Assembly: GCA_021735655.1 (NCBI GenBank)
Contig: JAIPGM010000004.1
Location: 95,874-159,873 of the forward strand
From: Candidatus Omnitrophota bacterium
Lineage (GTDB): Bacteria > Omnitrophota > Gorgyraeia > Duberdicusellales > 4484-171
Direction: 5' to 3'
DNA length: 64,000 bases
A model generated the notes under the pieces. It saw nothing but the letters and a program-made list of their open reading frames with translations, was not told the DNA's origin and did not search any database. A program made the translations under genes and the position numbers. Positions 17,577-35,340 of this stretch are shown one piece after another (position 1 is the stretch's first letter; every line of letters starts with the position of its first letter).

Positions 17577-18434
17577 CTACCTTTTACCGATAACCCGCCT
17601 ATACCTACCACGTTTTGGGTTTATCATAAGCTGACGAAAAGCCTCAGCTCGCTGATTTTCCCTCCACTTTTGTTCTTCAGCTTGTTGTTTCTCTTTTTCT
17701 CGTTGCTCATCCATGTGAGATAGAATATCTTGAGCTAAAAGCAAACGTGAATTATTTAAGGCACATTCTACAAAGTCTTTTCGACTAAGGCTGGCAACTA
17801 CAGCCCATCCGCCCATATCTCCCGGAAAAAGACACCAAAGAAAAGATCGCCTTTCATCTGCCTGATCGACAGGGGGAATACCTTGAAAATCAAAATAAAC
17901 TGGTACTGAGCTTTCAAGCCACCTTTTAGGAAAACATTCTTCTGGGAAATAGGTAAAATATATGCCTTTCCAAATTGAAGATCCAAAGTCTTTATGCCCT
18001 GACCCGGCATGGAAATCATTAGACCCTTTACAAAAACGTCGGTAGTCCATCGACAATCGTGTACCGTTAACAAGCCACACCATATTTTTATAAAAATTTT
18101 CACGACTCTTTATCTCATCAGAGTCGATTGCCGAATGCTGAAATTCTATTACAAGCCCACTGATCGTTTTTACATCTGCAATATGTTTTTCTTCATTCAT
18201 AGAATCAAAGTGCCCAAGCTCCTGCCATTCTTTCGGAAAATGTTTCTTCCATTCTCTGTGCCACTCCGCTTCATTCTCCCACCATGGATCACACAACGAT
18301 TTTCGCTTATGCTTCCAATGCCAAACTTTTTCTGCCCCACAATAAGCGATCATATCGCTTTGGCAATGCACACACGAACCTCGTAACCCCGGCTGAGCTT
18401 CCGTCTTATCTCCGCCAACCAGAGCAAATCTCAT
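17577..18434 (-). CDS. CoiA-like competence-family protein (putative nuclease-fold protein)
   Basis: 285 aa. N-terminal Cys-rich CVHCQSDMIAYCG...WHWKH. EKHIADVKT...VIEFQHSAIDSDEIKSRENFY resembles the CoiA core. Confidence 0.45.
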   Translation of the reverse strand: MRFALVGGDKTEAQPGLRGSCVHCQSDMIAYCGAEKVWHWKHKRKSLCDPWWENEAEWHREWKKHFPKEWQELGHFDSMNEEKHIADVKTISGLVIEFQHSAIDSDEIKSRENFYKNMVWLVNGTRLSMDYRRFCKGSNDFHAGSGHKDFGSSIWKGIYFTYFPEECFPKRWLESSVPVYFDFQGIPPVDQADERRSFLWCLFPGDMGGWAVVASLSRKDFVECALNNSRLLLAQDILSHMDEQREKEKQQAEEQKWRENQRAEAFRQLMINPKRGRYRRVIGKR

Positions 18435-18679
18435 ATTTTATTCCTTTTTTTTTCGGTGTTATTAGTGCAAGCCCATACTAAAGCGACAATCCACGCAATT
18501 CCCCCAGTAAAAACCATAAACAGGTTTAAGATAAATATGGCTAAAGCATTATTATGCTTCCTCTTTCTAGCAACAACAGTCGGCAAGAAATAAAAACCGA
18601 TGGCAACGATACCGCCAATAATTCCCAAAACAATCCATGCTACAGGGGCTTGATCCCACCAAGCAATAAAATCGCCCAT
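18431..18679 (-). CDS. Superinfection-immunity-like small membrane protein (Imm_superinfect-like)
   Basis: 82 aa, two TM helices. FLPTVVARKRKHNNALAIFILNLFMVFTGGIAWIVALVWA matches the Imm_superinfect pattern. Overlaps the CoiA-like gene by 4 nt. Confidence 0.5.
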   Translation of the reverse strand: MGDFIAWWDQAPVAWIVLGIIGGIVAIGFYFLPTVVARKRKHNNALAIFILNLFMVFTGGIAWIVALVWACTNNTEKKRNKI

Positions 18680-20156: not shown

Positions 20157-21467
20157 CTAGACCTCTTTTTCCTTTAAGAAATCAAGTACGGGCTTGAATT
20201 TCTTTATTGTACTGATGATTTCGCCCTCTAACTCTACTGATTCTGTAAGCACCTTAGTTCCTCTGTCAATAGAATACCTAAAGTGTATACCGGGAGCCCC
20301 CGGCTCTTTATCCGCTTTTTTCAAAACATCACAAATATATTGAACGTCTTTTTGCGTATTAATATCACTCAACTTCATTTCAAAGAATTTAACCCATTTT
20401 TCATTGCCGGGCATTATGCGTTTCCCTGTTCTCGGCAAACGTTTTGAAACTACCAGCCTCGATTCCTTTCTGGCACCGCTTATAACCTGAAGGAATTTAT
20501 TTGTATTTGTAGATATCCGATTAAAAAATATGCCGATAGGGGTCTTACTCTGAGATGTCCGACCGTTGCGGACAACAGTGTTGATATCCAAACAACTCTT
20601 TGAAACCTCAATAGTAAAATTACATTGGTTAAAAACGTCCTTGCCATCCTTTGGTCTTTTAATTGCGACCCAAGCAAACCTCTCATCCTTGCCACTTCTC
20701 GATATGTTCCCGGGCTTAATAAATGAATATTCAGAACCGATTTCTTTCGGCAGTTTTTCTTTTATGATATTTGCCAGAGCTTTAAGTTTTTTCCTGAGAA
20801 TAGGGACGTAATACGGATTGGGGTCAATCCAAAAATCAAAATCCGAGTCTTTGAATCCATTAAATTCGGTCATTACGACTACCTCCATGTAATCAATAAA
20901 CTGCTCAATTAATTGTGCAACCGCAGATAGCGATTTATTTCCTTTTATTTTCTCAACTGTGCGACGGCATATTTTATGAACCTTCGACCAGCTAAGGTAT
21001 CTAACACGGTTATCGCTAATGCTATTTAAACTGCTTTTGTCATCTAAATTGTTCGTTATAACAACAAGGACATCTTTAGCACCTATATCGCTCAAATGCC
21101 GTCTAATTTGATCAAGATCCAATCTTGCCCGAACTTTCGATTCAATATGGATATTGTAATCTGCCAAATCGATCAAAGCATCAGGTCTGCTACCGCTTAA
21201 TCCTTTCTGCAGTTTAAAAGAAACCACCGGGCGATTTGGTGCCTCGATTGCTTTTAAGAATCCAGACAAAAGGTCGACAAAACCTGCCTGACAGCAAAAT
21301 TCGAATATATTGACCAGCCCTTTGGTAGTGTTATCCTCAACTTGGAAATCATACAAGGATTCTTTATCTCGCTTAGAAGGCCCCCGGTAATAAAAAAATA
21401 TGTTCTGATGAGGATCTCTCACGCTTTTCTCCCATATTCGGTCTTTAAAAATTTGCCATAAGCCCAC
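20157..21467 (-). CDS. Hypothetical protein with an N-terminal PD-(D/E)xK-like nuclease motif
   Basis: 436 aa. RPDALIDLADYNIHIESK fits PD...(D/E)xK spacing. No other domain recognised. 49-nt overlap with the upstream 197-aa gene. Confidence 0.4.
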   Translation of the reverse strand: MGLWQIFKDRIWEKSVRDPHQNIFFYYRGPSKRDKESLYDFQVEDNTTKGLVNIFEFCCQAGFVDLLSGFLKAIEAPNRPVVSFKLQKGLSGSRPDALIDLADYNIHIESKVRARLDLDQIRRHLSDIGAKDVLVVITNNLDDKSSLNSISDNRVRYLSWSKVHKICRRTVEKIKGNKSLSAVAQLIEQFIDYMEVVVMTEFNGFKDSDFDFWIDPNPYYVPILRKKLKALANIIKEKLPKEIGSEYSFIKPGNISRSGKDERFAWVAIKRPKDGKDVFNQCNFTIEVSKSCLDINTVVRNGRTSQSKTPIGIFFNRISTNTNKFLQVISGARKESRLVVSKRLPRTGKRIMPGNEKWVKFFEMKLSDINTQKDVQYICDVLKKADKEPGAPGIHFRYSIDRGTKVLTESVELEGEIISTIKKFKPVLDFLKEKEV

Positions 21468-22012
21468 AGGGCTTCATCAAGCCGCTTCCATGCAACCCCT
21501 TTTTTGCATAGCTCATTAAAAAATGGGGCATACTCCGCAAAATATATTTGTTCTTTTTGCTTGTTGCTATTTGGAATTTCATTGCGTCGGTTTTGACTCA
21601 AAAAGATAAAAGCCCTATAAACATGCTGATCAAATATCGGGAAATCATTCGGCGTGATTATGTGTAAAAGATATATTTTCCAGATAGCTCCGTTTACAAA
21701 ACTGAAATCTTTTAAGAAAGAATCGAGGGAAAAAAAGTCCTTAAGGTTATTGATGACATTCAGCTTGGCTTTAATATTCGATAGCACTACTTCTTTTTTC
21801 TGGGATAGTTTACTCCCATTTTTCCAAATAAATAATTTATCAATATCATCGATGCTGAATTTTTTCTTTCCGATAATAGGGACGTAATAATCTTCCATAG
21901 GATAGTTATAAAAACTGCTCCAGAATTTAACAAACTCATCTATTGTGACATTTTTTGTGTTTAAAACCGGGAAATTCATTATTGCTCCGTTAAATTTTCC
22001 CCACTTGGACAA
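21419..22012 (-). CDS. Hypothetical protein, partner of the PD-(D/E)xK protein
   Basis: 197 aa. No recognisable motif. Overlaps and is likely co-transcribed with the downstream 436-aa gene. Confidence 0.35.
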   Translation of the reverse strand: MSKWGKFNGAIMNFPVLNTKNVTIDEFVKFWSSFYNYPMEDYYVPIIGKKKFSIDDIDKLFIWKNGSKLSQKKEVVLSNIKAKLNVINNLKDFFSLDSFLKDFSFVNGAIWKIYLLHIITPNDFPIFDQHVYRAFIFLSQNRRNEIPNSNKQKEQIYFAEYAPFFNELCKKGVAWKRLDEALWAYGKFLKTEYGRKA

Positions 22013-22560: not shown

Positions 22561-23736
22561 CTAATAAGACAATCCATATTTCTTCATTGCTTCTTTTAGT
22601 AATGGCGGTGATTTCCGTTCACCAAAAGCGTCCCCTAAAAGATGTACTATAAATTTCTCAGTTTTAGGTAAAATAACACTTGAATGCTGAACGACTAAAC
22701 TCACCCATTTATCAACCAGTTCTTTTGTTCTTATATATTCCTTTAATTCCCAATAGTGCCTGACCTCGTCAACCGTGAGTTTTGAAACAATTTCAATAAT
22801 TTCTTTAGCGTTTCTTTGGAGGTAATAAAATATCTTTGGAATCTTATGGTACGCCACGTCATTAATAACAATTGTCTGTTGTCCTCCAGCGGTAAATCTA
22901 TCTCTAAGCGAAGAATCCACCACACCATGACGAGCCGCTAACCAAGTCGCGAAATTTTGATATTTTGTTTGACTCCTACCAAATATCTCAGGGAATCTTG
23001 CCATAGCTTCATTTCTAAAGCGATTCTGTTTATCTTCATGAAGATTGCCCCACAAAGTAACTGTGGGACTTAGCATGGCGTCAACTTCATCCCCGGGATC
23101 CATCCACCAAGGTTCTTCTCCTTTTTTAGAAATTTTGCGAAAATAACGAACAACTTCCTTAATCGGATTATCTTGTTTCCGCAAAATGTTATATTCCGTT
23201 CCCATCTTATCAAATATGGTTTTCCCAGAATCAAGCTCCATATCTATCAAATATCTCGGGGAATGGGTTACAGCGATGTCGTAAAGACATTCTTCATATC
23301 TTCGAAACTTAAACTTTGGTGGAGCGACCAGTCTTCCAAAAAATAGATATATTCTTTCAACGCCTTCAACTCTTGTTGTTTCAAGGACACTATTGCCAGT
23401 ACTACGCCAATGATCTTGTTTGGTAATTTTTACTTCCACTCCGTAATATCGTTTCGCCACTATATCTGGAAATTTATGCCCTGATATAAGTTGTATCGTT
23501 CCTTCAAATTCAGTTTTTTTCGATGAAATCAACATAGAACCGTAGACTTCTTTTTCAAAATCTGATGAAGATAATCCGCAATAGCGCTTTGGAGCTTTTG
23601 ACGCTTCATCTTGAATGGTTTTAATCCCACCGTTCAATAAAGTCTCAAAAGAATTCTCACTCGCTTCTGTCCTTTTAGATATAATCATTTTAATCCTTTC
23701 TTGAAAATCTTTGGCCATAGCTCCTGTAGACGCCAC
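22561..23736 (-). CDS. Putative type II restriction endonuclease
   Basis: 391 aa. HKFPDIV...YGVEVKITK is a PD-(D/E)xK-like motif. Overlaps the methyltransferase by 52 nt, the classic RM gene arrangement. Confidence 0.5.
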   Translation of the reverse strand: MASTGAMAKDFQERIKMIISKRTEASENSFETLLNGGIKTIQDEASKAPKRYCGLSSSDFEKEVYGSMLISSKKTEFEGTIQLISGHKFPDIVAKRYYGVEVKITKQDHWRSTGNSVLETTRVEGVERIYLFFGRLVAPPKFKFRRYEECLYDIAVTHSPRYLIDMELDSGKTIFDKMGTEYNILRKQDNPIKEVVRYFRKISKKGEEPWWMDPGDEVDAMLSPTVTLWGNLHEDKQNRFRNEAMARFPEIFGRSQTKYQNFATWLAARHGVVDSSLRDRFTAGGQQTIVINDVAYHKIPKIFYYLQRNAKEIIEIVSKLTVDEVRHYWELKEYIRTKELVDKWVSLVVQHSSVILPKTEKFIVHLLGDAFGERKSPPLLKEAMKKYGLSY

Positions 23737-24974
23737 GCCACATTAAAAGCTAATAATGGTGGCACAGCGTTGCCAATCACTCTGTAACCATCTGATGGGC
23801 TCAAAGCAAACTCCGATCCTAAAACCGAAGCGCTTCTCGTAAAAGCGAAATCATCGGGAAAGGTTTGAATTCTGGCGCATTCTCGAACTGTCAACCGTCG
23901 CTCTTTTAGCCCCATATCAATTTCTTTAAGATTTTTTCCGCCATGCTCTTTCGACAAACGTCTAAATTCTATATTCCCATGATGTTCAGCTCGAATCGTT
24001 GGCCCTAATCCCATCACATTAACTTCACTTTGTCCTTGGCAATGTTTTCCATACCACTTAGCTCTTGAATAAGCTTTTTGAGAGGGGTCATTCGAGAATT
24101 CCGGTTCTTTCAGTCCAACAAAAGCGTCTTTAACTTTTACAAAGGGCAATAAGTGTGAATCTTCACTAATTTCACCATGCGTTCTTGGGGGATATGGGTT
24201 AAAGCACGAATCATCACTCAATAAGGTTAATTGTTCAATAGCTTTTCTAGTCAGAGCATCCCTTCTAAAACCGATAAAAACTACCCTCTCTCTAGTCTGG
24301 GGGGCACCATAATCCTGCGCTCTTAATACTTTAGCGTTAACAACCAAATAACCATTATCTCCAATAGATCCAAAATCATTTTCGATAATCTTCTTAGCGT
24401 CGGATAAAGATACTAGCCCCTTGACATTTTCGGCAAGAAATACTTTTGGCCGGACAATTTCAATAACAGCTCTCATCCACATGTAAAGCTTCCCCCGATT
24501 TTCTTCTGATGGTTCCTTGCCGTTTAACAATCCTCCATGATGTGCCTTGTGAGAATTAAAACCTTTGCGTTTTCCCGCCACGCTAAAATCTTGACACGGG
24601 AAACCACCAGTAACCAAATCAACTCTCGGAAAGACTCTCGCCGCTCCTGAAGAATGCTTCCTAACTAAATCAACAATACTTTCAGAATGAAAAAGCGATC
24701 CATTTTTTCCTTCTTTATCAAAATAAGGAACCCAACCAGCTTTAGCCGATTGTAAAATATCATTGGCAAAAACTGTTTTAAACACTGTTTTTGGCAATCG
24801 AACCCAATGCTTATTTATAGGATTTTTTAACCAATCTGGATGAATTATTGGATTAATGGATTTTTTAAGAACGATGAAATCACCTTCAAAACCTAAATCC
24901 ATACCACCGCAACCAGAGAACAATGAAAGTACTTTCAACGTTTGTGTCTTTTTTTTCATTTTTAGTCCTATCAA
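23685..24974 (-). CDS. DNA (cytosine-5)-methyltransferase
   Basis: 429 aa. Motif I LSLFSGCGGMDLGF. Motif IV GFPCQDFSVAGKRKG. Motif VI ENVKGLV. Motif VIII QTRERVVFIGF. Motif X GNAVPPLLA. Confidence 0.9.
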   Translation of the reverse strand: MIGLKMKKKTQTLKVLSLFSGCGGMDLGFEGDFIVLKKSINPIIHPDWLKNPINKHWVRLPKTVFKTVFANDILQSAKAGWVPYFDKEGKNGSLFHSESIVDLVRKHSSGAARVFPRVDLVTGGFPCQDFSVAGKRKGFNSHKAHHGGLLNGKEPSEENRGKLYMWMRAVIEIVRPKVFLAENVKGLVSLSDAKKIIENDFGSIGDNGYLVVNAKVLRAQDYGAPQTRERVVFIGFRRDALTRKAIEQLTLLSDDSCFNPYPPRTHGEISEDSHLLPFVKVKDAFVGLKEPEFSNDPSQKAYSRAKWYGKHCQGQSEVNVMGLGPTIRAEHHGNIEFRRLSKEHGGKNLKEIDMGLKERRLTVRECARIQTFPDDFAFTRSASVLGSEFALSPSDGYRVIGNAVPPLLAFNVAWRLQELWPKIFKKGLK

Positions 24975-25693
24975 TTTTCCATAAACCCTTCATCAGCAAA
25001 GCTGAAGAAAGAATTATCACCAATTATTACATGATCCAAAAAGTCAATTTTTATAGACTTGCTCACATTTAGAATATCCTTTGTTAAATTTCGATCGTCA
25101 ATACTTGGATCACAATTCCCAGAAGGATGATTGTGAGCGCAAATAAATGAACTAGAGCAACACTCTAGAGCCTTATGAAATATTTCCCTAACAATAGGAT
25201 TAACTTCATCGACTGTTCCTTTTCCAAGCTCAACGATATTTATCAATCGACTCTTGGTGTCAAGATAAAGAACCTTAAATTCTTCTTTCTTTAAATCACG
25301 CATGCGAGGCGATAATAAGGTAAACACATCTTTGGCATTTTCAATCCTAATTTTTTTGGGAATGATTTTCCCTTCATGGAATCTTTTGCCAATTTCTATC
25401 GATGCTCGTATTTGAGCTATCTTAGCGACACCAAGACCTTTAAACTCTTTCCAATCCAAATCCCCAGCCTGACTTAATTCCCGGAAAGAACCAAACTTTT
25501 TAATTACAGAACGAGCTAAATCCAAAGCGCTCTGTCCTCGTATCCCAATACGAAGAATAATTGCTAATAATTCGGCATCGCTTAAAGATTCTTCTCCTTT
25601 TTTTAAAAGCTTCTCTCTCGGTCGGTCATCCACCGGCCAAGCGCTTATTCCTGATGGTTTTCTAGTCTTTGTTTTTCCCAATTTTATACCCAA
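24971..25693 (-). CDS. RadC-like JAB-domain protein
   Basis: 240 aa. N-terminal HhH region LSDAELLAIILRIG. HNHPSGNCDPSIDDRNLT is the JAMM motif. The ORF track uses a TTG start. The N-terminus contains in-frame 12-bp tandem repeats. Confidence 0.8.
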   Translation of the reverse strand: MGIKLGKTKTRKPSGISAWPVDDRPREKLLKKGEESLSDAELLAIILRIGIRGQSALDLARSVIKKFGSFRELSQAGDLDWKEFKGLGVAKIAQIRASIEIGKRFHEGKIIPKKIRIENAKDVFTLLSPRMRDLKKEEFKVLYLDTKSRLINIVELGKGTVDEVNPIVREIFHKALECCSSSFICAHNHPSGNCDPSIDDRNLTKDILNVSKSIKIDFLDHVIIGDNSFFSFADEGFMEN

Positions 25694-25746
25694 TTTAATC
25701 CCTCGTTTAATCCCTCATTTAATCCCTCACGCACGCCAAATCATAC

Positions 25747-25947
25747 CTATTCCAGTACATCCCAATGTCCGCTTTTTCTCGAGCCAATACGCTTCAAAAA
25801 ACCTTCTTCCTTTAGCTTGGCAATGGCATTTTCCACTGTTCGCTGTGATAGCTGTATCTGATCCGCAATTTCATACGTTTTTATAAAAGAATCTGCCTCA
25901 ATGGCGTTTAAAACTTTCTCCGCGTTTATTCCGCACTTCTTCCGCAT
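25747..25947 (-). CDS. Winged-helix DNA-binding protein
   Basis: 66 aa. YEIADQIQLSQRTVENAIAKLKEEGFLKR is a wHTH. The start lies within three 11-bp tandem repeats. Confidence 0.5.
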   Translation of the reverse strand: MRKKCGINAEKVLNAIEADSFIKTYEIADQIQLSQRTVENAIAKLKEEGFLKRIGSRKSGHWDVLE

Positions 25948-25983
25948 TTCTTCCGCATTTTCTACCGCAATTACACTCTCATT

Positions 25984-27084
25984 TTAAACTATCCTTTTCT
26001 TGCTTCTTTTTTTTGAAGGTTTTTTACTGATTTGCGATTCCACCAAAAAACGCTCACGTTTTAACTCTTTGACAAGCTCGTCTTCCGTTGGCAAATATAA
26101 CTTATACCTCGAGGCAAATATCTGTTTGTTATCTTTAGGCAACGTGTACCTGACAACAGCGTCTTTTTTATCTTCGCACAAAATAAGTCCAACTGTTGGA
26201 TTGTCATCTTTCTGTTTCATGGATCGGTCGTAATAGTTTACATACATCTGCATTTGTCCGATATCCTGATGAACTAGTTTCCCAATTTTTAAATCGATAA
26301 GGACAAAGCATTTCAAGATAGTATTGTAAAAAACCAGATCAACATAAAAATGATCGCCATCCAATGTAATGCGTTTCTGTCTGCCTACAAATGTAAATCC
26401 TTTTCCAAGCTCAAGCAAAAACCTGGAAAGGTTATCAATAAGCGCCTGTTCCAGCTTGCTCTCGTATAATTTTGAGTGAGGAGATAATCCGGTAAATTCT
26501 AAAACATAAGGATCTTTTATCATATCTTCATATGTTGCCAGCTCTTGTCCTTTGCGAGCCAGCCTCATAAGACCTTTTTTGTCTTTGCTTAAAGCAAGCC
26601 GCTCATAAAGAAGTGTTCCTTTTTGTCGTTCAAGTTCGCGAGCTGACCAATTATTAGCGACGCACTCCGCCTCATAAAAGGATCTTGCATCAGGCTTGTC
26701 GACTCGCATCAATATTCGATAATGCGTCCAGCTCAATTCTTGACGCACTGCGTCAAGAATTGGATATGCTAAATAAAACTTTCGCATATTCGTCAAATTC
26801 GTAAAATCAAAGCCCTTGCCAAATTCATCTGAAAGTCGATGGGACAAATCTTCTATTGTTTTCTTTCCATATCCTGCGCGCTTCTTGCCTTTCTGTTCTT
26901 CTTCGACAATTTCTTTTCCGATATGCCAATAGGCTAAAACCATCTCCGTATTAACAGCGCGGGCGATATTGTTTCTTGCGTTCTCAATAATTGCGCAGAT
27001 TCGTTCGTACGCATTTGTTTTATTATTAACTCTCTTTTTGGCGATACTTCGAGAGCTTTTTTGAATGGCTTTTTTTCGTGGCAT
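25984..27084 (-). CDS. YhcG/DUF1016-family PDDEXK nuclease
   Basis: 366 aa. LSWTHYRILMRV, GFTFVGRQKRITLDGDHFYVDLVFYNTILKCFVLIDLKIGK and VGLILCEDK match the YhcG conserved blocks. Confidence 0.75.
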   Translation of the reverse strand: MPRKKAIQKSSRSIAKKRVNNKTNAYERICAIIENARNNIARAVNTEMVLAYWHIGKEIVEEEQKGKKRAGYGKKTIEDLSHRLSDEFGKGFDFTNLTNMRKFYLAYPILDAVRQELSWTHYRILMRVDKPDARSFYEAECVANNWSARELERQKGTLLYERLALSKDKKGLMRLARKGQELATYEDMIKDPYVLEFTGLSPHSKLYESKLEQALIDNLSRFLLELGKGFTFVGRQKRITLDGDHFYVDLVFYNTILKCFVLIDLKIGKLVHQDIGQMQMYVNYYDRSMKQKDDNPTVGLILCEDKKDAVVRYTLPKDNKQIFASRYKLYLPTEDELVKELKRERFLVESQISKKPSKKRSKKRIV

Positions 27085-29343: not shown

Positions 29344-29634
29344 GCGTTGTGAACGTCGATTCCACTACTTTCTAAATCCCTCTTTACGCCTCTTTTACAC
29401 CCCTTTTTTGTGACTTTCCTGACCCTTTCCCTTATATTTTTCTTTTTTTAGAACAGAGGGGTTTTTACGTTCACAATGTTCACAAACCACACAAATCCTT
29501 GTAGATTAAGAAGTTAACCACTGAGCGTAGGTGTGACCGTAGACTCTGGACGTTCACAACGTTCACACTTTTCAGTACGGTCTCGGGTCCTCACGGTCAC
29601 AACGCTCACCGACGTTCACACCGACGCTCACACC
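29344..29634. repeat. Cluster of at least 8 copies of ACG(T/C)TCACA in both orientations (iteron/operator-like)
   Basis: gcgttgtgaacgtcg; acgttcacaatgttcacaaaccacaca; gacgttcacaacgttcacac; cggtcacaacgctcaccgacgttcacaccgacgctcacacc. Lies between the primase 3' end and the 28831..29244 gene start. Confidence 0.6.
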
Positions 29635-31935
29635 ATTTTCAAAGAGCGAATTGCCCTTAGTTTTCCGTAAAATAAACAGCTTCCTGCCGGTACCGGCTTC
29701 ACGTTTATTACTACGTAAAATATCAATCCCCACACTCCTCATAACAGGTGCGATACGCATAAGTTCAGAAGCTAAAGCCCTAGCATTAGCGGGAATTGTT
29801 TTATCAAATCCTGTCTCAGGCTGAACACTTGAAAGAAGCGTAGTCGCAGAACCTGCCCATTCACCACCGTTAAATTCCACAAGATAAGTAAGCCTCTGTG
29901 CAAGCGTGCTTTCTTCGGCAGTATCTTCCCATTTATGATCAACCGACTCCTGATACTTCTGTAAAAACTCATCCTGTGAAAAGCCTAAATATCCCGACAA
30001 GCCTGAACCCCATTTAGCGAAATCCGACATCCTGAAACGTTCATGCCCTGATACTCCGTCAACAATAGCCATAGCTTTTGAAAGGGCGGTAAAGAATCCG
30101 CCGAGAATGCCCGGCAAAGAAGCCCTCCACTCATCAGCGATTTGTTTTTCAGGTCTTGTTTCTTTGAGAATAGGAATATCGAATATTATTGATCTATCTA
30201 AAAGGTCGGGTCGGCAGATGGAACTGCCTATGCCGTTTAAAACAAAACATCTGCGGTACGTCCTTATAAATTCTTCGTCATTAGTGTAGAGTGACCGTTT
30301 CATGTCGCCTTCACCGGTTACCGCACGACATAAAAAATCACTGAACCATTCAGATACACGAGAGAGATTGTCGAAGTTATTCACCCAATGCTTATCAGCG
30401 ATCATCTGAGCCTGTTCTAAGTCTTTGGGAGCCGAAATTGACATTACTTTTGACGGATCACATAAACTTTTTATTAATCGGGAATTATTTGACTTACCAG
30501 TGCCTTGCTCGCCGAGTTGGACAGGTATAACATGGGGAATATCAGGAATGAAAAACGTAGCTATAACCGTCATAAAAAGGCAGGCGTCATCTTTATTAAT
30601 ATTACAGAAGTCTAAAAGTTTTATCGGATCAAATCCTTTAACAGGCATGACCTGCTCAGACTGGTGAGGGTAACGCTTAAATATCGGCGGGAGAAAAACA
30701 ATTTCCCAGCCGTCTTTTGTAATCACAACTCCACGCCAGTCTTTAGTCGTAAGGTCGTAATAAATCGCTCCGTTATACCAGCCTACACGGTTATACAGCT
30801 CAATCTGCCGACCGCCTTCGCATTGTGCCTCAACCTGAATACGTGCCTGTTTTAACGCCTCATTGCCCGGAGGATGACCGAAATCCCTGCGGTACCGCAT
30901 TGCAAAACAGTTCCTGAAACGTGAACTGCTCGTCTGGCATACTTCAAAGTGTTTATCATAAGGAAGGACAACATAAGGATTGCCCTGCTGATCGGAAAAA
31001 TATTCCGTGATCATTTCTTCACAGTCCCGGGTTATTATCTCGCCTTGAGTAAGCTTCTTTTGCTTAGGAGTGTTTGAAGCAGTAAATTCGTCCTTAGTAT
31101 CCTGAATCGCTTTATCAATTGCCGATTCTCCGTATGTCTTGCCATCGCTAAAATGCTTCTCATCCCACTTTGATCGCATAAGACCAGAGTGACGGAACAA
31201 AGAATCCATCCCCACAGAATCTTTGCCAGTCCAAAAGGCGAGTTTATTGCATAAAGCAAGATCCGCTTCTGATTGGGAAGGATAATCATCCTGCCATCTG
31301 CCTTCATATAATTTAAAGAAACTATCTGCGTCTTTGCTTTTCCTGATCCTGTTAAGGAGAGATTTTACTTTCTTATTCTCCGCGTCCAGATTTTCAAGAT
31401 GTTCATACAAGGCTTTGAGCTTGTCGGAACATTCGACAATCTTGTCATTACAGCCCTTAACAATGTCTCCGGTCGTAATAAGAAATCTATTCCCTGAATA
31501 CATCTCCACATTAAACGAGCTGAACTTGCGGTCTCTGGGAAGCGTGCCTTTGCAGATAGTGTGAAGTCCTGTTCCGCTGACTGAATATTCTGTGTAACTG
31601 TTAAGCTCGGATATTATTTTTTGGACGAAAGGCGTAATAATTCCGTCTTTAATACAGTTATCAAAATCTATTCCCGCATGTGGCGATCTAAGGGCAAAAC
31701 CGATAGCATCAAATTTCAAGATTTCAGCTTTGGATAAAACCACATCCAACGCACACCATGTCTTTGGATTATTTGATTGGGCATGTCCGCCGGTAAGCGC
31801 ATTGATAGGTTCTTTCCGTGGCTTTTTACCTTTTTGAGGAACAAACCGGAAGCCCACCCATATAGGCAAGTCTTTCATTTCCTGCGGTATATTTTCCACA
31901 TACCATTTCTTCTCTTTTCTTCTCTCTTTCTTCAT
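29572..31935 (-). CDS. DNA primase-polymerase (prim-pol N-terminal domain) fused to a P-loop SF3-helicase-like domain (P4/D5-type primase-helicase)
   Basis: 787 aa. Prim-pol-like N-terminus. Walker A GEQGTGKSNNS mid-protein. The last ~20 codons read through the repeat cluster, so the real stop may be earlier. Confidence 0.6.
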   Translation of the reverse strand: MKKERRKEKKWYVENIPQEMKDLPIWVGFRFVPQKGKKPRKEPINALTGGHAQSNNPKTWCALDVVLSKAEILKFDAIGFALRSPHAGIDFDNCIKDGIITPFVQKIISELNSYTEYSVSGTGLHTICKGTLPRDRKFSSFNVEMYSGNRFLITTGDIVKGCNDKIVECSDKLKALYEHLENLDAENKKVKSLLNRIRKSKDADSFFKLYEGRWQDDYPSQSEADLALCNKLAFWTGKDSVGMDSLFRHSGLMRSKWDEKHFSDGKTYGESAIDKAIQDTKDEFTASNTPKQKKLTQGEIITRDCEEMITEYFSDQQGNPYVVLPYDKHFEVCQTSSSRFRNCFAMRYRRDFGHPPGNEALKQARIQVEAQCEGGRQIELYNRVGWYNGAIYYDLTTKDWRGVVITKDGWEIVFLPPIFKRYPHQSEQVMPVKGFDPIKLLDFCNINKDDACLFMTVIATFFIPDIPHVIPVQLGEQGTGKSNNSRLIKSLCDPSKVMSISAPKDLEQAQMIADKHWVNNFDNLSRVSEWFSDFLCRAVTGEGDMKRSLYTNDEEFIRTYRRCFVLNGIGSSICRPDLLDRSIIFDIPILKETRPEKQIADEWRASLPGILGGFFTALSKAMAIVDGVSGHERFRMSDFAKWGSGLSGYLGFSQDEFLQKYQESVDHKWEDTAEESTLAQRLTYLVEFNGGEWAGSATTLLSSVQPETGFDKTIPANARALASELMRIAPVMRSVGIDILRSNKREAGTGRKLFILRKTKGNSLFENGVSVGVNVGERCDREDPRPY

Positions 31936-31937
31936 TG

Positions 31938-32207
31938 TTATGCTCCGTTCTGAAATATGAAGTCTTTAACCTTCCTGTAACATTGAAATAACTGCTCCTC
32001 TTTGGAGTTATTGAAAAACTTATCCGCCAGCTTGCGTGTTTTCTCGGCATCATCGAAAAGGATTCGTTTCTGCCTGCCAACTCCCGATAAACCCTTCATG
32101 TCGCACCCCTTTGATACGAGGTACGTGGCTAAATAAATATTCCCCGCTTCAAAATAATTTTCTTCCATAATTCTTTCCTTTGCTTTTCCTGCACTAGGTA
32201 CATACAA
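31938..32207 (-). CDS. Small hypothetical protein (DUF5659-like), commonly next to mobile-element primases
   Basis: 89 aa. MEENYFEAGNIYLATYLVSKG. Directly upstream of the primase and probably co-transcribed. Confidence 0.35.
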   Translation of the reverse strand: MYVPSAGKAKERIMEENYFEAGNIYLATYLVSKGCDMKGLSGVGRQKRILFDDAEKTRKLADKFFNNSKEEQLFQCYRKVKDFIFQNGA

Positions 32208-32217
32208 CTTTTTTCCT

Positions 32218-32995
32218 TAAAATGTTGCACCCATTTTCAGATATACGACGTACCCCTGAAAACTGTCGGGATTTATTTCCCTATGGGGTATATACGACGA
32301 CTTTTCGCATTTTGTCCCACTGCAAGATGTTTTTACCCCTCACTACGTACATACAGATTTTTTTCAAAAAGTGTCCCCCCTTAGAGCGTATATACGTAAA
32401 AAAACTTTAAAATGTTGCAGGCTAAACTAAAATTTTTCATAATCAGCCATCCTCAAAGCGTATATACGGAAAAATTTCTCAAAGTGTCTCAGCTTTTTTA
32501 CATTTTTTTTAAAATCTGCCCTCCAGAGCATACATACGTATAAATTTCCCAAAATGTTGCATGCTAAATTAAAATTCTTGCCCCCACCGGGTACATACAA
32601 CTTTTTTTGCCAAAGTGTCTCACTAAAAATCAAAATATCTGTCCCATAGCGTATATTCCCCGCATTTCTCAAAAGTGTCAGAAATATTTTCTTCCCACAG
32701 CGTACATACCGGGTTTTTCCAAAAAGTGTCGGGCTTATTTTGCTTCTATTCATGTATTCAGGATTTTTTCGAAAAGTGTCGGATTTTTCTAACCCCCTAT
32801 TAGTACATTCCGGATTTTTCTACAAAGTGTCGGAACTTTTTTTATTTTTCCTGCAACACTTTCAAGGAAAACGTCGTATATACGTATTAGGGTGGGACAC
32901 TTTCGCCTAAAAAACTGTATATACGTAGTAGGGAGGTAATTTTCTTGAAGAAATTTCCGACACTTTCGGCATTTTTCCGGAATATACATATATGG
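32218..32995. repeat. Iteron-like array: about 11 direct and 3 inverted copies of a bipartite motif (C)GTATATAC(G) ... ~10-12 nt ... AAAGTGTC, period ~50-70 bp
   Basis: Direct units start near 32241, 32290, 32348, 32389, 32460, 32530, 32592, 32651, 32703, 32753 and 32803. Inverted units lie at 32853..32991. CGTATATACG is itself a palindrome. Confidence 0.8.
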
Positions 32996-33059
32996 AGGGT
33001 ATTAGCTTGACTTGTCCCGAAGGGTGTTATAGGGGTGTTGTATTAAGGAGGTTTTAAAA

Positions 33060-34715
33060 ATGAGCGCAGAGAAGAAAAGAAAAAAGTTCGTGATTTACAC
33101 ACGCTGTTCAACTGATGATCAGGCAAAGGGTGATTTCACCACGCTTGACGCTCAGGCTCACCACTGCCGGAATATGCTTGATGCATTCGGCTACGAAATG
33201 GCTGATTTTGGGGATAAAGGCATCATTAATGATGACGGCTATTCAGGCAAAGATCTGAACCGCCCCGGCATTCAAGCTATTCTTAAAGACATCCAATCCA
33301 AGAAGTCGTTTGACGGTATTATATTCTTCAGGCTTGATAGGCTGACGCGCAATCCTCGTGACCTTTACGGCATGATCGACACGTTTAAGGCTGAGGATAT
33401 CGACTTTTTATCAGTGAGAGAAAATCTGGACAGCTCAACAGCCATAGGCAGGGTTATGATCGGCATAATCGGCTTATTGTCGGCATTTGAGCGTGAACTT
33501 ACAGGTGAACGCGTCCGTGCTTCGGCTATCGCCAGAGCAAGGCAGGGCAAATGGGTCGGCGGCAAACCGCCTTTTGGTTATAGGTTGGTTAAAACCGGGG
33601 AACAATTATCGAATGGCCGTAGACCCAGCCGAATAGTTATCGATACAGCTATCGCGCCTTATATCCATATGATCTTTAAACTGGCCGCTGATAATAAAAC
33701 TCTCTCGGAAATCGGAAATGAACTCCTCAAAAGAAACGTTCCCACGTTCAAAAGTAAAGTATGGTGCAAACAAACAATATCGAAAATCATCAAAAACCCT
33801 TTTTATAAAGGAATGATTTCTTACGCGGGGGAAATAAGCAAAGGATTACATGAAGCGATCGTAAATGAAGCCCTTTGGAGAAAAGCGAATAAAATTATAT
33901 CCGCTAATATCCCCGGGCATAGATTTCTGAAAACCACGCATGATTATAAACACCTGCTAAAAGGTATTCTTCGCTGTGGATCATGCGGAAGCTATTATAT
34001 CTCCACACACGCTAAAGGAAATATGGGGAATAAATTCTATTATTACGAATGTAGCAAGACACGCCAAAAGCTCGGATGTAACGCGAAAAGAATATCATCG
34101 ACCGGATTTGATCAAGCTGTCATTAAATTCCTAAACAGAGCCTCAGAGGATCAGGATATCATTATCAACGCCATAGGAAACGCCATTAAAGATTCCTCCG
34201 CTAATCTGCATAAATACGATAAAGACATCCGTGAAATAAAAAAGAAAATTGACTCAGTAAAAGAGTCAACAGATAAACTGATCGATCTGGCTATGAATAG
34301 CGTTATCCCCAAGGGACGCACATATTCAGAAAAAATGGACGCTCTTGAGTTAGAGTTAACTTTGCTTGAGGATAAACTTTCGAAGAAGGAGGCTAATAAA
34401 AAAGCCGCTGAAATGTCGGTACACTCCAACGAATACCTGCACACAAACCTTAAGATCGCTATGCAATACCTCGAGCAAGCCCCGCCAGACGCCCAAATCG
34501 CCCTTTTAAAGGTGCTTATCAAAGAAATAAGGCTCTATGACGATCATGTTAAGCTGGAAATGTATATCGGCGAGCCTGACGGCGGGATTGTGCGGGATCT
34601 AATCCTGAAGGAACCCCAAAAACAGCAAACTCCGCCCCCTTTTGAGGGACAGAGTTCGACTGGTTGTCAACTATGGCGGGGTCGATGGGATTCGAACCCA
34701 CGATCACCTGCGTGA
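33060..34715 (+). CDS. Large serine recombinase (integrase)
   Basis: 551 aa. Resolvase catalytic N-terminus FVIYTRCSTDDQ. Recombinase domain. Zn-ribbon CGSCGSYY...YYECS...GCNAKR. Coiled coil. The 3' end overlaps tRNA-Asp by 39 nt. Confidence 0.85.
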   Translation: MSAEKKRKKFVIYTRCSTDDQAKGDFTTLDAQAHHCRNMLDAFGYEMADFGDKGIINDDGYSGKDLNRPGIQAILKDIQSKKSFDGIIFFRLDRLTRNPRDLYGMIDTFKAEDIDFLSVRENLDSSTAIGRVMIGIIGLLSAFERELTGERVRASAIARARQGKWVGGKPPFGYRLVKTGEQLSNGRRPSRIVIDTAIAPYIHMIFKLAADNKTLSEIGNELLKRNVPTFKSKVWCKQTISKIIKNPFYKGMISYAGEISKGLHEAIVNEALWRKANKIISANIPGHRFLKTTHDYKHLLKGILRCGSCGSYYISTHAKGNMGNKFYYYECSKTRQKLGCNAKRISSTGFDQAVIKFLNRASEDQDIIINAIGNAIKDSSANLHKYDKDIREIKKKIDSVKESTDKLIDLAMNSVIPKGRTYSEKMDALELELTLLEDKLSKKEANKKAAEMSVHSNEYLHTNLKIAMQYLEQAPPDAQIALLKVLIKEIRLYDDHVKLEMYIGEPDGGIVRDLILKEPQKQQTPPPFEGQSSTGCQLWRGRWDSNPRSPA

Positions 34716-34752
34716 CAGGCAGGGGACTTAAGCCAGGCTAATCGACGACCCC
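34677..34752 (-). tRNA. tRNA-Asp (GTC)
   Basis: Reverse strand GGGGTCGTCGATTAGCCTGGCTTAAGTCCCCTGCCTGTCACGCAGGTGATCGTGGGTTCGAATCCCATCGACCCCG. 7-bp acceptor stem. Anticodon loop CTGTCAC. TTCGAAT T-loop. G73 discriminator. Confidence 0.85.
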
Positions 34753-34823
34753 GAGTAGAAATAACTAAGTAAAATTAAGGCTGGAATCTAGATTCTACGT
34801 CTTAATTTAAAATTGTCAACTAT

Positions 34824-35018
34824 CTATTTTCGTTCGTAAACTTTCAGGAGAATTGCAATCACTAAAATCGTGTTTGCTACAGTAACCACGGCTGAAGCCC
34901 GCATAGTTGGCACAAGCTTAAAAAAACCTAAAGTGGCTGGTCCAGTAAATCTCCCAACAACTGCGTAGAAAAATAAACCAAGACCAAGAGCTATAAGAAC
35001 ATACGTAAACCCTTTCAT
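34824..35018 (-). CDS. Small two-TM membrane protein
   Basis: 64 aa. Strong SD AGGAGG 7 nt upstream of the ATG. Hydrophobic. Confidence 0.4.
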   Translation of the reverse strand: MKGFTYVLIALGLGLFFYAVVGRFTGPATLGFFKLVPTMRASAVVTVANTILVIAILLKVYERK

Positions 35019-35059
35019 TCTCTGCCTCCTTTTTTTAATTCTTCTTGGCTAAATCTAAA

Positions 35060-35133
35060 TGGGCGATACAGGACTTGAACCTGTGACCCCTTCCATGTCA
35101 AGGAAGTACTCTAGCCAACTGAGCTAATCGCCC
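35060..35133 (-). tRNA. tRNA-Val (GAC)
   Basis: Reverse strand GGGCGATTAGCTCAGTTGGCTAGAGTACTTCCTTGACATGGAAGGGGTCACAGGTTCAAGTCCTGTATCGCCCA. Anticodon loop TTGACAT. Confidence 0.85.
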
Positions 35134-35141
35134 AAAAAGTA

Positions 35142-35227
35142 TGGGCGGGGAGGGACTCGAACCCTCACGTCCCTCACGGGACATCGGATTTTAAGTCCGA
35201 GCTGTCTGCCAATTCCAACACCCGCCC
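35142..35227 (-). tRNA. tRNA-Leu (TAA), class II with a long variable arm
   Basis: Reverse strand GGGCGGGTGTTGGAATTGGCAGACAGCTCGGACTTAAAATCCGATGTCCCGTGAGGGACGTGAGGGTTCGAGTCCCTCCCCGCCCA. 86 nt. Confidence 0.85.
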
Positions 35228-35267
35228 ATACTTATTAGTAATAATTGTTGCTTATTTTATCAGCAAA

Positions 35268-35340
35268 AGGCGTGGGCCGGATTTGAACCGGCGCATAATG
35301 GTTTTGCAGACCACTGCCTTACCAACTTGGCTACCACGCC
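35268..35340 (-). tRNA. tRNA-Cys (GCA)
   Basis: Reverse strand GGCGTGGTAGCCAAGTTGGTAAGGCAGTGGTCTGCAAAACCATTATGCGCCGGTTCAAATCCGGCCCACGCCT. Anticodon loop CTGCAAA. U73 discriminator. Confidence 0.85.

What the first reader, a model, noticed from the sequence alone, without database searches (positions are those of the whole stretch)
20157..22012. Overlapping two-gene module of unknown function next to the RM/Vsr genes, a candidate new defence or toxin module
A 197-aa protein with no recognisable motifs overlaps by 49 nt a 436-aa protein. The second protein's N-terminal region carries a PD-(D/E)xK-like constellation (RPDALIDL ... IHIESK), followed by ~280 aa with no match I recognise. The pair is co-oriented and tightly packed with Vsr, the restriction enzyme and the methyltransferase inside a mobile island. 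In that context uncharacterised nuclease-containing pairs are often anti-phage or toxin-antitoxin systems. I cannot assign either protein to a described family from sequence alone.
Basis: inference. Interest (0 to 1): 0.65.

Follow-up and report, generated by a model that had tools for sequence, protein, structure and literature searches.

The report
Glycosylase-like gene paired with orphan nuclease
Two tightly packed genes in a mobile island of an uncultivated Omnitrophota bacterium encode a small protein with the fold of a DNA base-excision enzyme and an uncharacterised DNA-cutting enzyme; together they are most likely an undescribed anti-virus defence pair, though this is untested.

Summary
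Both genes are real and conserved, but the stated boundaries are longest-ORF artefacts. Gene A is 186 aa (21419-21979, minus strand) and gene B is 421 aa (20157-21422). They overlap by 4 nt (GTGA), not 49.

A has recognisable features. Its model (pLDDT 95) matches only helix-hairpin-helix (HhH-GPD) DNA glycosylases, closest to Ogg2-type, and it has invariant Asp117, His119, Arg122 and Asp168. It resembles the recently described defence glycosylases (Dag1-17).

Neither protein hits Pfam, NCBIfam, PADLOC or PHROGs.

The pair keeps its order and its overlap across 55-90% identity while the flanking genes change. It is not obligate, though. Most A relatives lack B; they sit inside type I restriction-modification operons or next to other PD-(D/E)xK nucleases. 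Some close B relatives carry other upstream genes instead.

Best reading (about 0.45): A excises bases from foreign, probably modified, DNA and B cuts it.

This is a new variant of a known kind and of moderate interest. A toxin-antitoxin reading is poorly supported.

The parts
21419..21979 (-). Gene A: a 186-aa protein with a helix-hairpin-helix (HhH-GPD-like) DNA-glycosylase fold.
21605..21725 (-). Candidate HhH-GPD core of A: helix 85-91, hairpin 92-97, helix 98-108, Pro-rich loop 109-116, and invariant Asp117 at the start of helix 118-129 (FVNGAIWKIYLLHIITPNDFPIFDQHVYRA).
   Evidence: Secondary structure of the model. D117 is present in 168/168 sequences, with P114, I115, Q118, H119 and R122 nearly invariant. 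The equivalence to the catalytic Asp of endonuclease III/Ogg2 rests on my own knowledge of those motifs. It was not tested by residue-level superposition.
21419..21422 (-). GTGA junction: the GTG start of B overlaps the TGA stop of A by 4 nt.
   Evidence: Sequence. The junction in the other A-B loci is also a start/stop overlap: 4 nt in L001-L003 by the collection's gene calls, and abutting/overlapping by my own ORF calls in L016 and L044-L046. Such overlaps are also common between unrelated neighbours in this window.
20157..21422 (-). Gene B: a 421-aa two-domain protein, identical to the NCBI hypothetical protein K9L86_04770 from a Candidatus Omnitrophica MAG.
   Evidence: P0001 is 100% identical and 421 aa. 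GGGAG at 21433-21429 precedes the GTG. The model has pLDDT 88.1.
21320..21422 (-). N-terminal signature of the B superfamily: MRDPHQNIFFYYRGPS ... QVEDNTTK (residues 1-34). Function unknown.
   Evidence: N7, F9, Y12, Q27, E29, N31, T33 and K34 are the most invariant residues in 97 distant representatives. Residues 12-24 have low pLDDT.
20868..21365 (-). PD-(D/E)xK nuclease domain of B (residues about 20-185), with E29, D81, E94, K96 and Q105.
20169..20825 (-). C-terminal YktB/DUF1054-like alpha/beta domain of B (residues about 200-418). Function unknown.

Best explanation
A and B form a small defence cassette carried on an integrated mobile element.

A is a sequence-orphan member of the helix-hairpin-helix DNA-glycosylase fold class. 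It is of the same general kind as the Dag defence glycosylases. It probably flips out and excises a non-canonical base from invading DNA, most plausibly a phage hypermodified base, leaving abasic sites.

B is a PD-(D/E)xK endonuclease of the PDDEXK_4 type fused to a YktB/DUF1054-like domain. It cuts DNA and may turn the glycosylase's lesions into strand breaks. Its C-terminal domain may serve as the DNA-, lesion- or partner-binding part.

A site next to a restriction-modification system makes sense. Restriction attacks unmodified DNA, and a modification-directed glycosylase attacks phages that escape restriction by modifying their bases.

Shown here: the gene structures, the folds, the conserved residues and the genomic associations.

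Inferred: glycosylase activity, the substrate, nuclease activity, any cooperation between A and B, and the anti-phage phenotype.
For: Fold of A:
- The only credible Foldseek hits are Ogg2-type enzymes, with probability 0.84 and 0.72.
- The model shows helix-hairpin-helix, a Pro-rich loop and an invariant Asp at a helix N-terminus.
- Two invariant Asp residues and a W/F four residues after the second have spacing close to the Dag1 residues K118, D132, D184 and W188 reported in 10.1101/2025.10.29.685425.
- One family member hits Pfam AGOG at E 0.0056.

Precedent:
- Small orphan HhH glycosylases defend against phages with 7-deazaguanine-modified DNA, and about 45% lie near defence or mobile-element genes.
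- Brig3 works in a two-gene operon with BapA.

B: nuclease fold with an invariant D81/E94/K96 triad.

Linkage of A and B:
- The order A then B with the start/stop overlap is kept in the window, L001-3/13/14, L016, L044, L045 and L046.
- The flanks of these loci differ, and the identities of A and B co-vary: A 55-81%, B 59-85%.
- Additional A-B pairs are inferred from shared contig lengths.
- A relatives also lie next to other PDDEXK_4-type nucleases in either order (L071, L074, L086).
- In L112 an A relative lies near a distant B relative.

Defence context:
- A relatives are embedded between hsdM and hsdS in 8 type I operons, and restriction-modification domains are the commonest neighbours among 136 neighbour proteins.
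- The Neobacillus A relative lies between dynamin-like GTPases and McrBC-like plus SIR2 genes.
- B relatives lie next to type I restriction-modification, HepT/MNT, PIN, HEPN, Abi_C and GIY-YIG genes.
- The window's island carries a recombinase, a primase-polymerase, YhcG (PADLOC PDC-S02), RadC, M-R-Vsr and a superinfection-immunity gene.
Against: - The Lys at the canonical HhH position (K101) is present in only 58% of the family.
- No Dag sequences were available, so homology to a Dag family is untested.
- The pair is not obligate. Only 3 of 80 metagenomic A loci have B.
- L015 has a B that is sister to an A-linked B, yet has no A within 21 kb. Partner types are interleaved on the B tree.
- The archaeal B (L009) has no partner.
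- Four-nucleotide overlaps occur between unrelated neighbours in this compact genome.
- PADLOC has no model for either protein.
- There are no experimental data.
Confidence: 0.45

Rival explanations
1. A and B are two independent single-gene defence or restriction-accessory genes that happen to be neighbours in this lineage. A acts alone as a Dag-like glycosylase. B acts alone as a restriction-like, perhaps modification-dependent, nuclease whose YktB-like domain recognises the target. There is no physical or mechanistic coupling.
For: - Most A relatives lack B, and many are solo or sit inside type I operons.
- B occurs with many different upstream genes or none.
- On the B tree, L015 is sister to an A-linked B but has no A.
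- The described Dag proteins work as single genes.
- Four-nucleotide overlaps are common here between unrelated genes.
- The nuclease domain resembles those of two-domain restriction enzymes: FokI, MspJI, AspBHI, N.BspD6I.
Against: - The A-B order and overlap persist down to about 55-60% identity while both flanks change.
- A relatives are independently found next to other PDDEXK_4-type nucleases in both orders, and near a distant B relative. This is hard to explain without a functional link.
Confidence: 0.3
2. The pair is a toxin-antitoxin-like or abortive-infection pair. B is a toxic nuclease, and A is its neutraliser or trigger-sensing partner rather than an enzyme.
For: - A small upstream gene is translationally coupled to a larger nuclease gene.
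- The pair lies in a mobile island.
- B's upstream partner is repeatedly swapped for other small proteins, as with modular sensors or antitoxins.
Against: - A has an enzyme-like invariant residue set and a glycosylase fold.
- A is mostly found without B, and B is found without any small partner. An obligate toxin-antitoxin pair would not show this.
- A has no DNA-binding antitoxin domain.
Confidence: 0.08
3. A is a repair glycosylase that serves the neighbouring restriction-modification system. Like Vsr or the Mig.MthI thymine glycosylase, it would correct damage associated with methylated bases. B would be a repair nuclease. The module would then be genome maintenance for the island's methyltransferase, not immunity.
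For: - The pair sits directly after M-R-Vsr.
- A relatives recur inside restriction-modification operons.
- NucS, a repair nuclease, is among B's structural neighbours.
Against: - No other A-B locus has the M-R-Vsr genes.
- The type I systems that embed A use N6-adenine methylases, for which no deamination-repair need is known (my own knowledge).
- Vsr already covers T:G repair in this window.
- Distribution is patchy and island-bound rather than core.
Confidence: 0.1

Closest known systems
Dag1-Dag17 defence-associated HhH glycosylases (Getz et al., bioRxiv 10.1101/2025.10.29.685425)
   Same: Both are small single-domain proteins with no sequence link to canonical glycosylases. Both have an HhH-superfamily fold closest to Ogg/AGOG-type enzymes and are encoded in mobile or defence regions. 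The spacing of K101, D117, D168 and W172 in A resembles that of the Dag1 residues K118, D132, D184 and W188.
   Different: Homology to any of the 17 Dag families could not be tested because no sequences were available. Dags act as single genes in Vibrio integron cassettes, whereas A is coupled to a nuclease here and to type I operons elsewhere. The Lys at the Dag1-K118-like position is not conserved in the A family. Substrate and activity are unknown.
Brig1, and Brig3 with BapA (PMC11078745, PMC13160076)
   Same: These are defence by excision of modified phage bases to give abasic sites. Brig3 acts in a two-gene operon with a helper enzyme.
   Different: The Brig proteins have the uracil-DNA-glycosylase fold, not HhH. 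BapA is a deglucosylating hydrolase, not a nuclease.
Restriction glycosylases of the R.PabI family (PMC10273834)
   Same: These are base excision used as restriction within restriction-modification loci. Strand breaks follow at the abasic sites (abstract).
   Different: They have a different fold, they are paired with a cognate methyltransferase, and they are specific for unmethylated sequence.
Pfam PF14281 PDDEXK_4 nucleases
   Same: B shares the helix-1 motif E-x-N-x-(S/T)...L and the core R-x-D ... I-E-x-K. B scores below threshold, some distant B relatives reach or approach the threshold, and bona fide PDDEXK_4 proteins also sit next to A relatives.
   Different: The window protein does not reach the Pfam threshold (13.7 against 22.3 bits). 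B has its own N-terminal NxFxYYRG signature and a YktB-like C-terminal domain. PDDEXK_4 itself has no known function.
YktB / DUF1054 (PDB 2a8e, 3mqz) and PF0168 (1yb3)
   Different: There is no detectable sequence similarity. YktB is a stand-alone protein of unknown function (one search found no functional study), whereas here the fold is fused to a nuclease.

Membership tests
HhH-GPD DNA glycosylase superfamily (protein A) | All-helical two-lobe fold superposable on EndoIII, MutY, AlkA or Ogg2 | tested here: met
HhH-GPD DNA glycosylase superfamily (protein A) | Helix-hairpin-helix followed by a Gly/Pro-rich loop and a conserved catalytic Asp | tested here: inconclusive
   The model has H85-91, a hairpin, H98-108, loop TPNDFPIF and D117 at the start of H118. 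D117 is present in 168/168 sequences, and P114 in 163/168. Residue-level superposition on a solved enzyme was not possible.
HhH-GPD DNA glycosylase superfamily (protein A) | Match to a sequence profile of the superfamily (Pfam HhH-GPD, AGOG, Ogg families; PDB sequences) | tested here: not met
   The window protein has no Pfam, NCBIfam or PDB-sequence hit. One of 57 relatives hits AGOG at E 0.0056, below threshold.
HhH-GPD DNA glycosylase superfamily (protein A) | N-glycosidic bond cleavage | not testable with these tools
   Needs enzyme assays.
Dag defence glycosylases (protein A) | Sequence or structural homology to one of Dag1-Dag17 | not testable with these tools
   The paper's tables give only locus tags. 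Accessions of A relatives were not found in the stored (truncated) Table S4.
Dag defence glycosylases (protein A) | Encoded near defence or mobile-element genes | tested here: met
   Window island. Type I operons, PD-(D/E)xK, HEPN and AAA_21 neighbours. Neobacillus island. Conjugative plasmid pXWY.
Dag defence glycosylases (protein A) | Protection against phages with modified guanines | not testable with these tools
   Needs plaque assays.
PD-(D/E)xK nuclease superfamily (protein B, N-terminal domain) | Alpha-beta-beta-beta-alpha-beta core fold | tested here: met
PD-(D/E)xK nuclease superfamily (protein B, N-terminal domain) | Conserved D ... (D/E)-x-K catalytic residues | tested here: met
   D81, E94 and K96 are invariant in 54 homologues. 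They are kept in about 70-75% of 97 distant representatives, where insertions make the alignment uncertain.
Pfam PDDEXK_4 (PF14281) (protein B) | Score at or above the gathering threshold (22.3 bits) | tested here: not met
   13.7 bits, E 0.059. Distant relatives score 22.8 (L112), 18.3, 14.7 and 13.4 bits.
YktB/DUF1054 fold (protein B, C-terminal domain) | Structural superposition on 2a8e or 3mqz | tested here: met
YktB/DUF1054 fold (protein B, C-terminal domain) | Match to Pfam DUF1054 or DUF2461 by sequence | tested here: not met
   No hit.
Type II toxin-antitoxin pair | The two genes co-occur obligately | tested here: not met
   3 of 80 A loci have B. B occurs with other partners or none.
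Type II toxin-antitoxin pair | The small partner has an antitoxin-type DNA-binding or neutralising domain | tested here: not met
   A has a glycosylase-like fold and no HTH, RHH or AbrB hit.
Known defence systems in PADLOC-DB v2 | Match to any PADLOC protein model | tested here: not met
   Zero families for A and for B at E up to 0.1.

The most novel reading that the evidence does not exclude
The B superfamily (about 900 sequence clusters, mostly in uncultivated bacteria and DPANN-type archaea) is a modular effector nuclease. Its YktB-like domain and invariant N-terminal NxFxYYRG peptide would receive a signal from an interchangeable upstream sensor gene. Candidate signals are an abasic-site complex, an excised base, or direct protein contact. 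A, the unrelated A' family and the DUF6308-like proteins would then be alternative base-flipping sensors. This would be a new two-component immune architecture, and it would give the first function for the YktB/DUF1054 fold.
Probability: 0.15. Interest if true: 0.8.

Novelty: new variant of a known kind. Interest (0 to 1): 0.55.

Why it matters
Defence by DNA glycosylases was recognised only in 2024-2026, and so far only as single genes from cultivable Proteobacteria or soil libraries.

If A is such an enzyme, the principle would extend to Omnitrophota, Planctomycetota and other uncultivated lineages. It would also show glycosylase genes repeatedly wired into restriction-modification operons and next to PD-(D/E)xK nucleases. 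That would fit the idea that restriction and modification-directed excision are complementary layers.

B would define a sizeable uncharacterised nuclease family. It would also offer a first functional handle on the YktB/DUF1054 fold, which has had solved structures since 2005 but no known role.

If the two genes are merely neighbours, the finding reduces to two new candidate single-gene defences. That is useful but ordinary.

Tried and rejected
- **Family libraries for A and B.** Pfam, NCBIfam, PADLOC, PHROGs and PDB-sequence searches gave nothing significant.
- **Other upstream partners of B as A homologues.** I tested the L004/L024 type (A') and the L018/L019 type.
  - hhalign of A against A' gave probability 0.2%, even with a 41-sequence A' alignment.
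  - A against the L018 type aligned only the LLHxxxPxxxPxxD motif, at probability 0.6%.
  - A' against the L018 type gave probability 50%.
  - I therefore do not claim that B is always paired with a glycosylase-like protein. The shared 'K..LHF..P...P.D' look is only a lead.
  - PDB profile searches with A' and the L018 type found nothing.
- **Assignment of A to a named Dag family.** Accession look-up in the paper's supplement was negative, but that table is truncated.
- **A conserved third gene.** The 254-aa signal-peptide protein downstream of B recurs only in L044. Other A-B loci have a lipoprotein or an HNH gene there, so it is not part of the core.
- **P0080, an SNF2 N-terminus joined to the C-terminal half of B.** It sits on a 1.9-kb contig and keeps only about 75 aa of SNF2, so I treated it as a probable assembly chimera or pseudogene.
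- **Phage origin.** There are no relatives of A or B in IMG/VR, and none of A in INPHARED phage records. B is absent from PLSDB plasmids.
- **Promoter and terminator scan.** Counts were no higher than in shuffled sequence, so operon boundaries remain unknown.
- **AlphaFold-database fold search.** The library was unavailable.
Full report
**1. What is in the sequence**

The minus strand between 20157 and 22012 carries two ORFs of 197 and 436 codons that overlap by 49 nt when taken at full length. Homologues show that both are too long at the 5' end.

- *Large protein (B).* All 85 relatives begin M(R/K)DPHQN. The database copy identical to the window protein (P0001, a hypothetical protein of a Candidatus Omnitrophica MAG) is 421 aa. 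Its start is therefore GTG at 21422, six bases after GGGAG.
- *Small protein (A).* Relatives are 185-190 aa. This fits ATG at 21979, five bases after GGAG.
- *Junction.* It reads GCGTGAGA. The GTG start of B overlaps the TGA stop of A by 4 nt.

I call the genes A (21419-21979, 186 aa) and B (20157-21422, 421 aa). The window is an Omnitrophota genome fragment.

**2. Surroundings**

From upstream to downstream, the co-directional array is:

- a YhcG/DUF1016 nuclease (PADLOC candidate PDC-S02)
- a small HTH protein
- RadC
- a C5 cytosine methyltransferase
- a type II restriction enzyme (PADLOC REase_II, E 1.6e-36; no Pfam hit)
- Vsr
- A, then B
- a 254-aa signal-peptide protein
- a lipoprotein
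- two small proteins, one of them a superinfection-immunity family member
- a weak CoiA-like nuclease

Further upstream lie an NrS-1-like primase-polymerase (29572-31935) and a large serine recombinase (33060-34715). The recombinase abuts a cluster of four tRNA genes. The 'mobile island' setting is therefore confirmed.

Promoter and terminator scans gave no signal above shuffled sequence.

**3. Protein A**

A has no significant hit in Pfam, NCBIfam, PADLOC, PHROGs or PDB sequences, either as a single sequence or as a 57-sequence profile.

The AlphaFold model built on that alignment is confident (pLDDT 95.4) and all-helical.

- Foldseek gives the Ogg2-type enzymes 3n0u and 3fhg as the only hits with real probability (0.84, 0.72; TM about 0.45). 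Their E-values are not significant.

The fold assignment is therefore consistent but moderate.

Within the model, helix 85-91, a hairpin and helix 98-108 are followed by the loop TPNDFPIF and then Asp117 at the start of the next helix. From my knowledge of endonuclease III and Ogg2, this is the layout of the HhH-GPD motif.

Over 168 family members the following are invariant or nearly so: W20, W52, K53, N54, K62, W100, H106, P114, I115, D117, Q118, H119, R122, D168 and G175. Position 172 is W or F. Position 101, where a bifunctional enzyme would carry its Lys, is K in only 58%.

Such a residue set argues for an enzyme or a specific ligand binder, not a structural protein or an antitoxin.

**4. 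Protein B**

The model (pLDDT 88.1) has two domains.

An exhaustive profile search finds 926 clusters at E up to 1e-3, 309 at 1e-10 and 92 at 1e-30. Of the 150 best that are listed, most are 390-460 aa and match along the whole profile, so they probably share the two-domain architecture.

Across 97 distant representatives, the most invariant residues are an N-terminal peptide (N7-x-F-x-Y-Y-R-G) and the helix-1 motif Q27-x-E29-(D/N)-N-x-T-K, plus W145. The role of the peptide is unexplained.

Genomes carrying B are mainly Omnitrophota and Planctomycetota MAGs and DPANN-type or methanogenic archaea. More distant relatives occur in Chloroflexota, Atribacterota, Thermoplasmata and others.

No relatives were found in IMG/VR or in PLSDB plasmids.

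**5. Is it a pair?**

*For a functional pair:*

- A directly precedes B with a start/stop overlap in the window, in L001-3/13/14, and in L016, L044, L045 and L046. More pairs are implied by shared contig lengths.
- Across these loci the flanking genes differ. Upstream of A they are Vsr (window), an 883-aa protein (L001), a 242-255-aa secreted protein (L016, L044) and a 265-aa unannotated ORF (L045). Downstream of B they are a signal-peptide protein, a lipoprotein or an HNH nuclease.
- The pairwise identities of A and B rise and fall together: A 55-81%, B 59-85%.
- A relatives are also found overlapping bona fide PDDEXK_4 proteins in both orders (L071, L074, L086). In L112 the order is a distant B relative, an ERCC4 nuclease, then A.

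*Against an obligate pair:*

- Of 80 metagenomic loci with A relatives, only the three closest have B.
- Eight loci have A between hsdM and hsdS of a type I system. Restriction-modification domains top the census of 136 neighbour proteins.
- Among close B relatives, the upstream gene is sometimes something else: an unrelated 220-aa family (A'; L004, L024), a DUF6308-like protein (L018, L019), a GIY-YIG, PIN, Abi_C or HEPN protein, a putative metallo-beta-lactamase-fold protein (L015; judged from an HxHxDH-like motif in its sequence, not searched against a family library), or a regulator.
- These partner types are interleaved on a neighbour-joining tree of B. L015 is sister to an A-linked B but has no A in 21 kb.
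- Four-nucleotide overlaps also join unrelated genes in this window, such as RadC and the methyltransferase.

I conclude that A and B are separately mobile defence-island genes. In one clade they have been kept together long enough to suggest cooperation, but they are not a fixed two-component system.

**6. Comparison with what is known**

Getz et al. (10.1101/2025.10.29.685425) describe Dag1-Dag17.

- These are small proteins with no sequence similarity to known glycosylases.
- Their HhH-superfamily fold clusters near AGOG/Ogg-type enzymes.
- They are encoded in integron cassettes, and about 45% lie within 20 kb of defence or mobile-element genes.
- They protect against phages with 7-deazaguanine-type bases.
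- In Dag1, K118, D184 and W188 are essential and D132 contributes.

In A, the residues K101, D117, D168 and W172 have nearly the same spacing (16/51/4 against 14/52/4). This is suggestive only. I could not obtain any Dag sequence, and accession look-ups in the stored, truncated supplement were negative.

The same paper shows that escaping Dag1 by losing the modification makes the phage sensitive to restriction again. This gives a rationale for A-type genes sitting in or beside restriction-modification operons.

Brig1 and Brig3/BapA are precedents for glycosylase defence, and Brig3/BapA for a two-gene operon, but they have a different fold. R.PabI-type restriction glycosylases are a further precedent for base excision followed by strand breakage.

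I found no described system that combines an HhH glycosylase-like protein with a PD-(D/E)xK-YktB nuclease. PADLOC has no model for either protein.

**7. Mechanism and rivals**

- *Most likely, about 0.45.* A recognises and excises a non-canonical base in invading DNA. B cuts the DNA, possibly at or near the lesions, with the YktB-like domain binding DNA, the lesion or A.
- *Next, about 0.3.* The two act independently.
- *Less likely.* A repair role for the neighbouring methyltransferase (about 0.1) and a toxin-antitoxin arrangement (about 0.08) both fit the distribution data poorly.

No enzymatic activity, substrate or phenotype has been shown.

**8. Verdict**

- The interpretation 'candidate defence module with a PD-(D/E)xK nuclease' is supported. 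The toxin alternative and the idea of a featureless first protein are not.
- This is a new variant of a known kind: glycosylase-based defence, here linked to an uncharacterised nuclease family.
- Interest is moderate (0.55). The mechanism is plausible and testable, both families are uncharacterised, and one fold has no known function. However, the coupling is uncertain and the general principle has already been published.

Noticed in passing
window 17577-18434 (-); L004-L006 9271-10062: A weak CoiA-like nuclease gene (Pfam CoiA_nuc E 0.0019, CoiA_N E 0.0027) lies about 1.7 kb downstream of B in the window. In the unrelated B locus L004 a CoiA_N protein lies directly downstream of B. This may be a recurrent neighbour.
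   Followed up: no
window 29572-35340: The end of an integrated element. A large serine recombinase (33060-34715) abuts tRNA-Asp, within a cluster of four tRNA genes (34674-35340). An NrS-1-like primase-polymerase lies at 29572-31935. The other boundary of the island was not located.
   Followed up: partly
window 22561-23736 (-): The 391-aa restriction enzyme between the C5 methyltransferase and Vsr has no Pfam or NCBIfam hit. It matches only the PADLOC REase_II model PDLC03508 (E 1.6e-36). Its longest ORF overlaps the methyltransferase ORF by 52 nt, so its start is probably also further downstream.
   Followed up: no
window 24971-27084 (-): RadC (JAB domain) overlaps the start of the methyltransferase gene by 4 nt. 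It is preceded by a 66-aa HTH protein and a YhcG/DUF1016 PD-(D/E)xK protein that matches the PADLOC candidate PDC-S02 (E 7e-151). The island therefore carries several stacked defence candidates.
   Followed up: no
window 18431-18679 (-): An 82-aa membrane protein of the superinfection-immunity family (Imm_superinfect, E 2.9e-14). It fits a phage- or satellite-derived island.
   Followed up: no
L004 7342-8001; L024 2149-2847; P0173-P0292: An orphan family of about 216-220-aa proteins (A'; 295 hits, no Pfam domain) replaces A directly upstream of B in two lineages. Elsewhere it is mostly solo near integrases and an Eco57I-like restriction-modification gene. It has an invariant motif SK.LHF..P...P.D that looks like an Ogg2-type HhH-GPD motif, but no profile link to A was found.
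   Followed up: partly
L069, L078, L082, L083, L094, L098, L108, L119: Relatives of A are inserted between hsdM and hsdS of type I restriction-modification operons, with the stop of A overlapping the start of hsdS.
   Followed up: partly
P0302, P0308, P0353, P0355, P0356, P0387, P0398: Proteins of about 226-241 aa match only the C-terminal (YktB-like) half of the B profile, starting at profile position 184. They are either split genes or contig-edge fragments.
   Followed up: no
P0080 (1883-bp Logan contig): A 293-aa protein joins about 75 aa of an SNF2 helicase N-terminus to the C-terminal half of B. It is probably an assembly chimera or a rearranged pseudogene. An SNF2 gene also lies about 3 kb from B in L001.
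   Followed up: no
L045 2826-3299; L046 7750-8241: In two A-B loci a 158-164-aa HNH endonuclease follows B with no intergenic gap. This gives a three-gene arrangement that is absent from the window.
   Followed up: no
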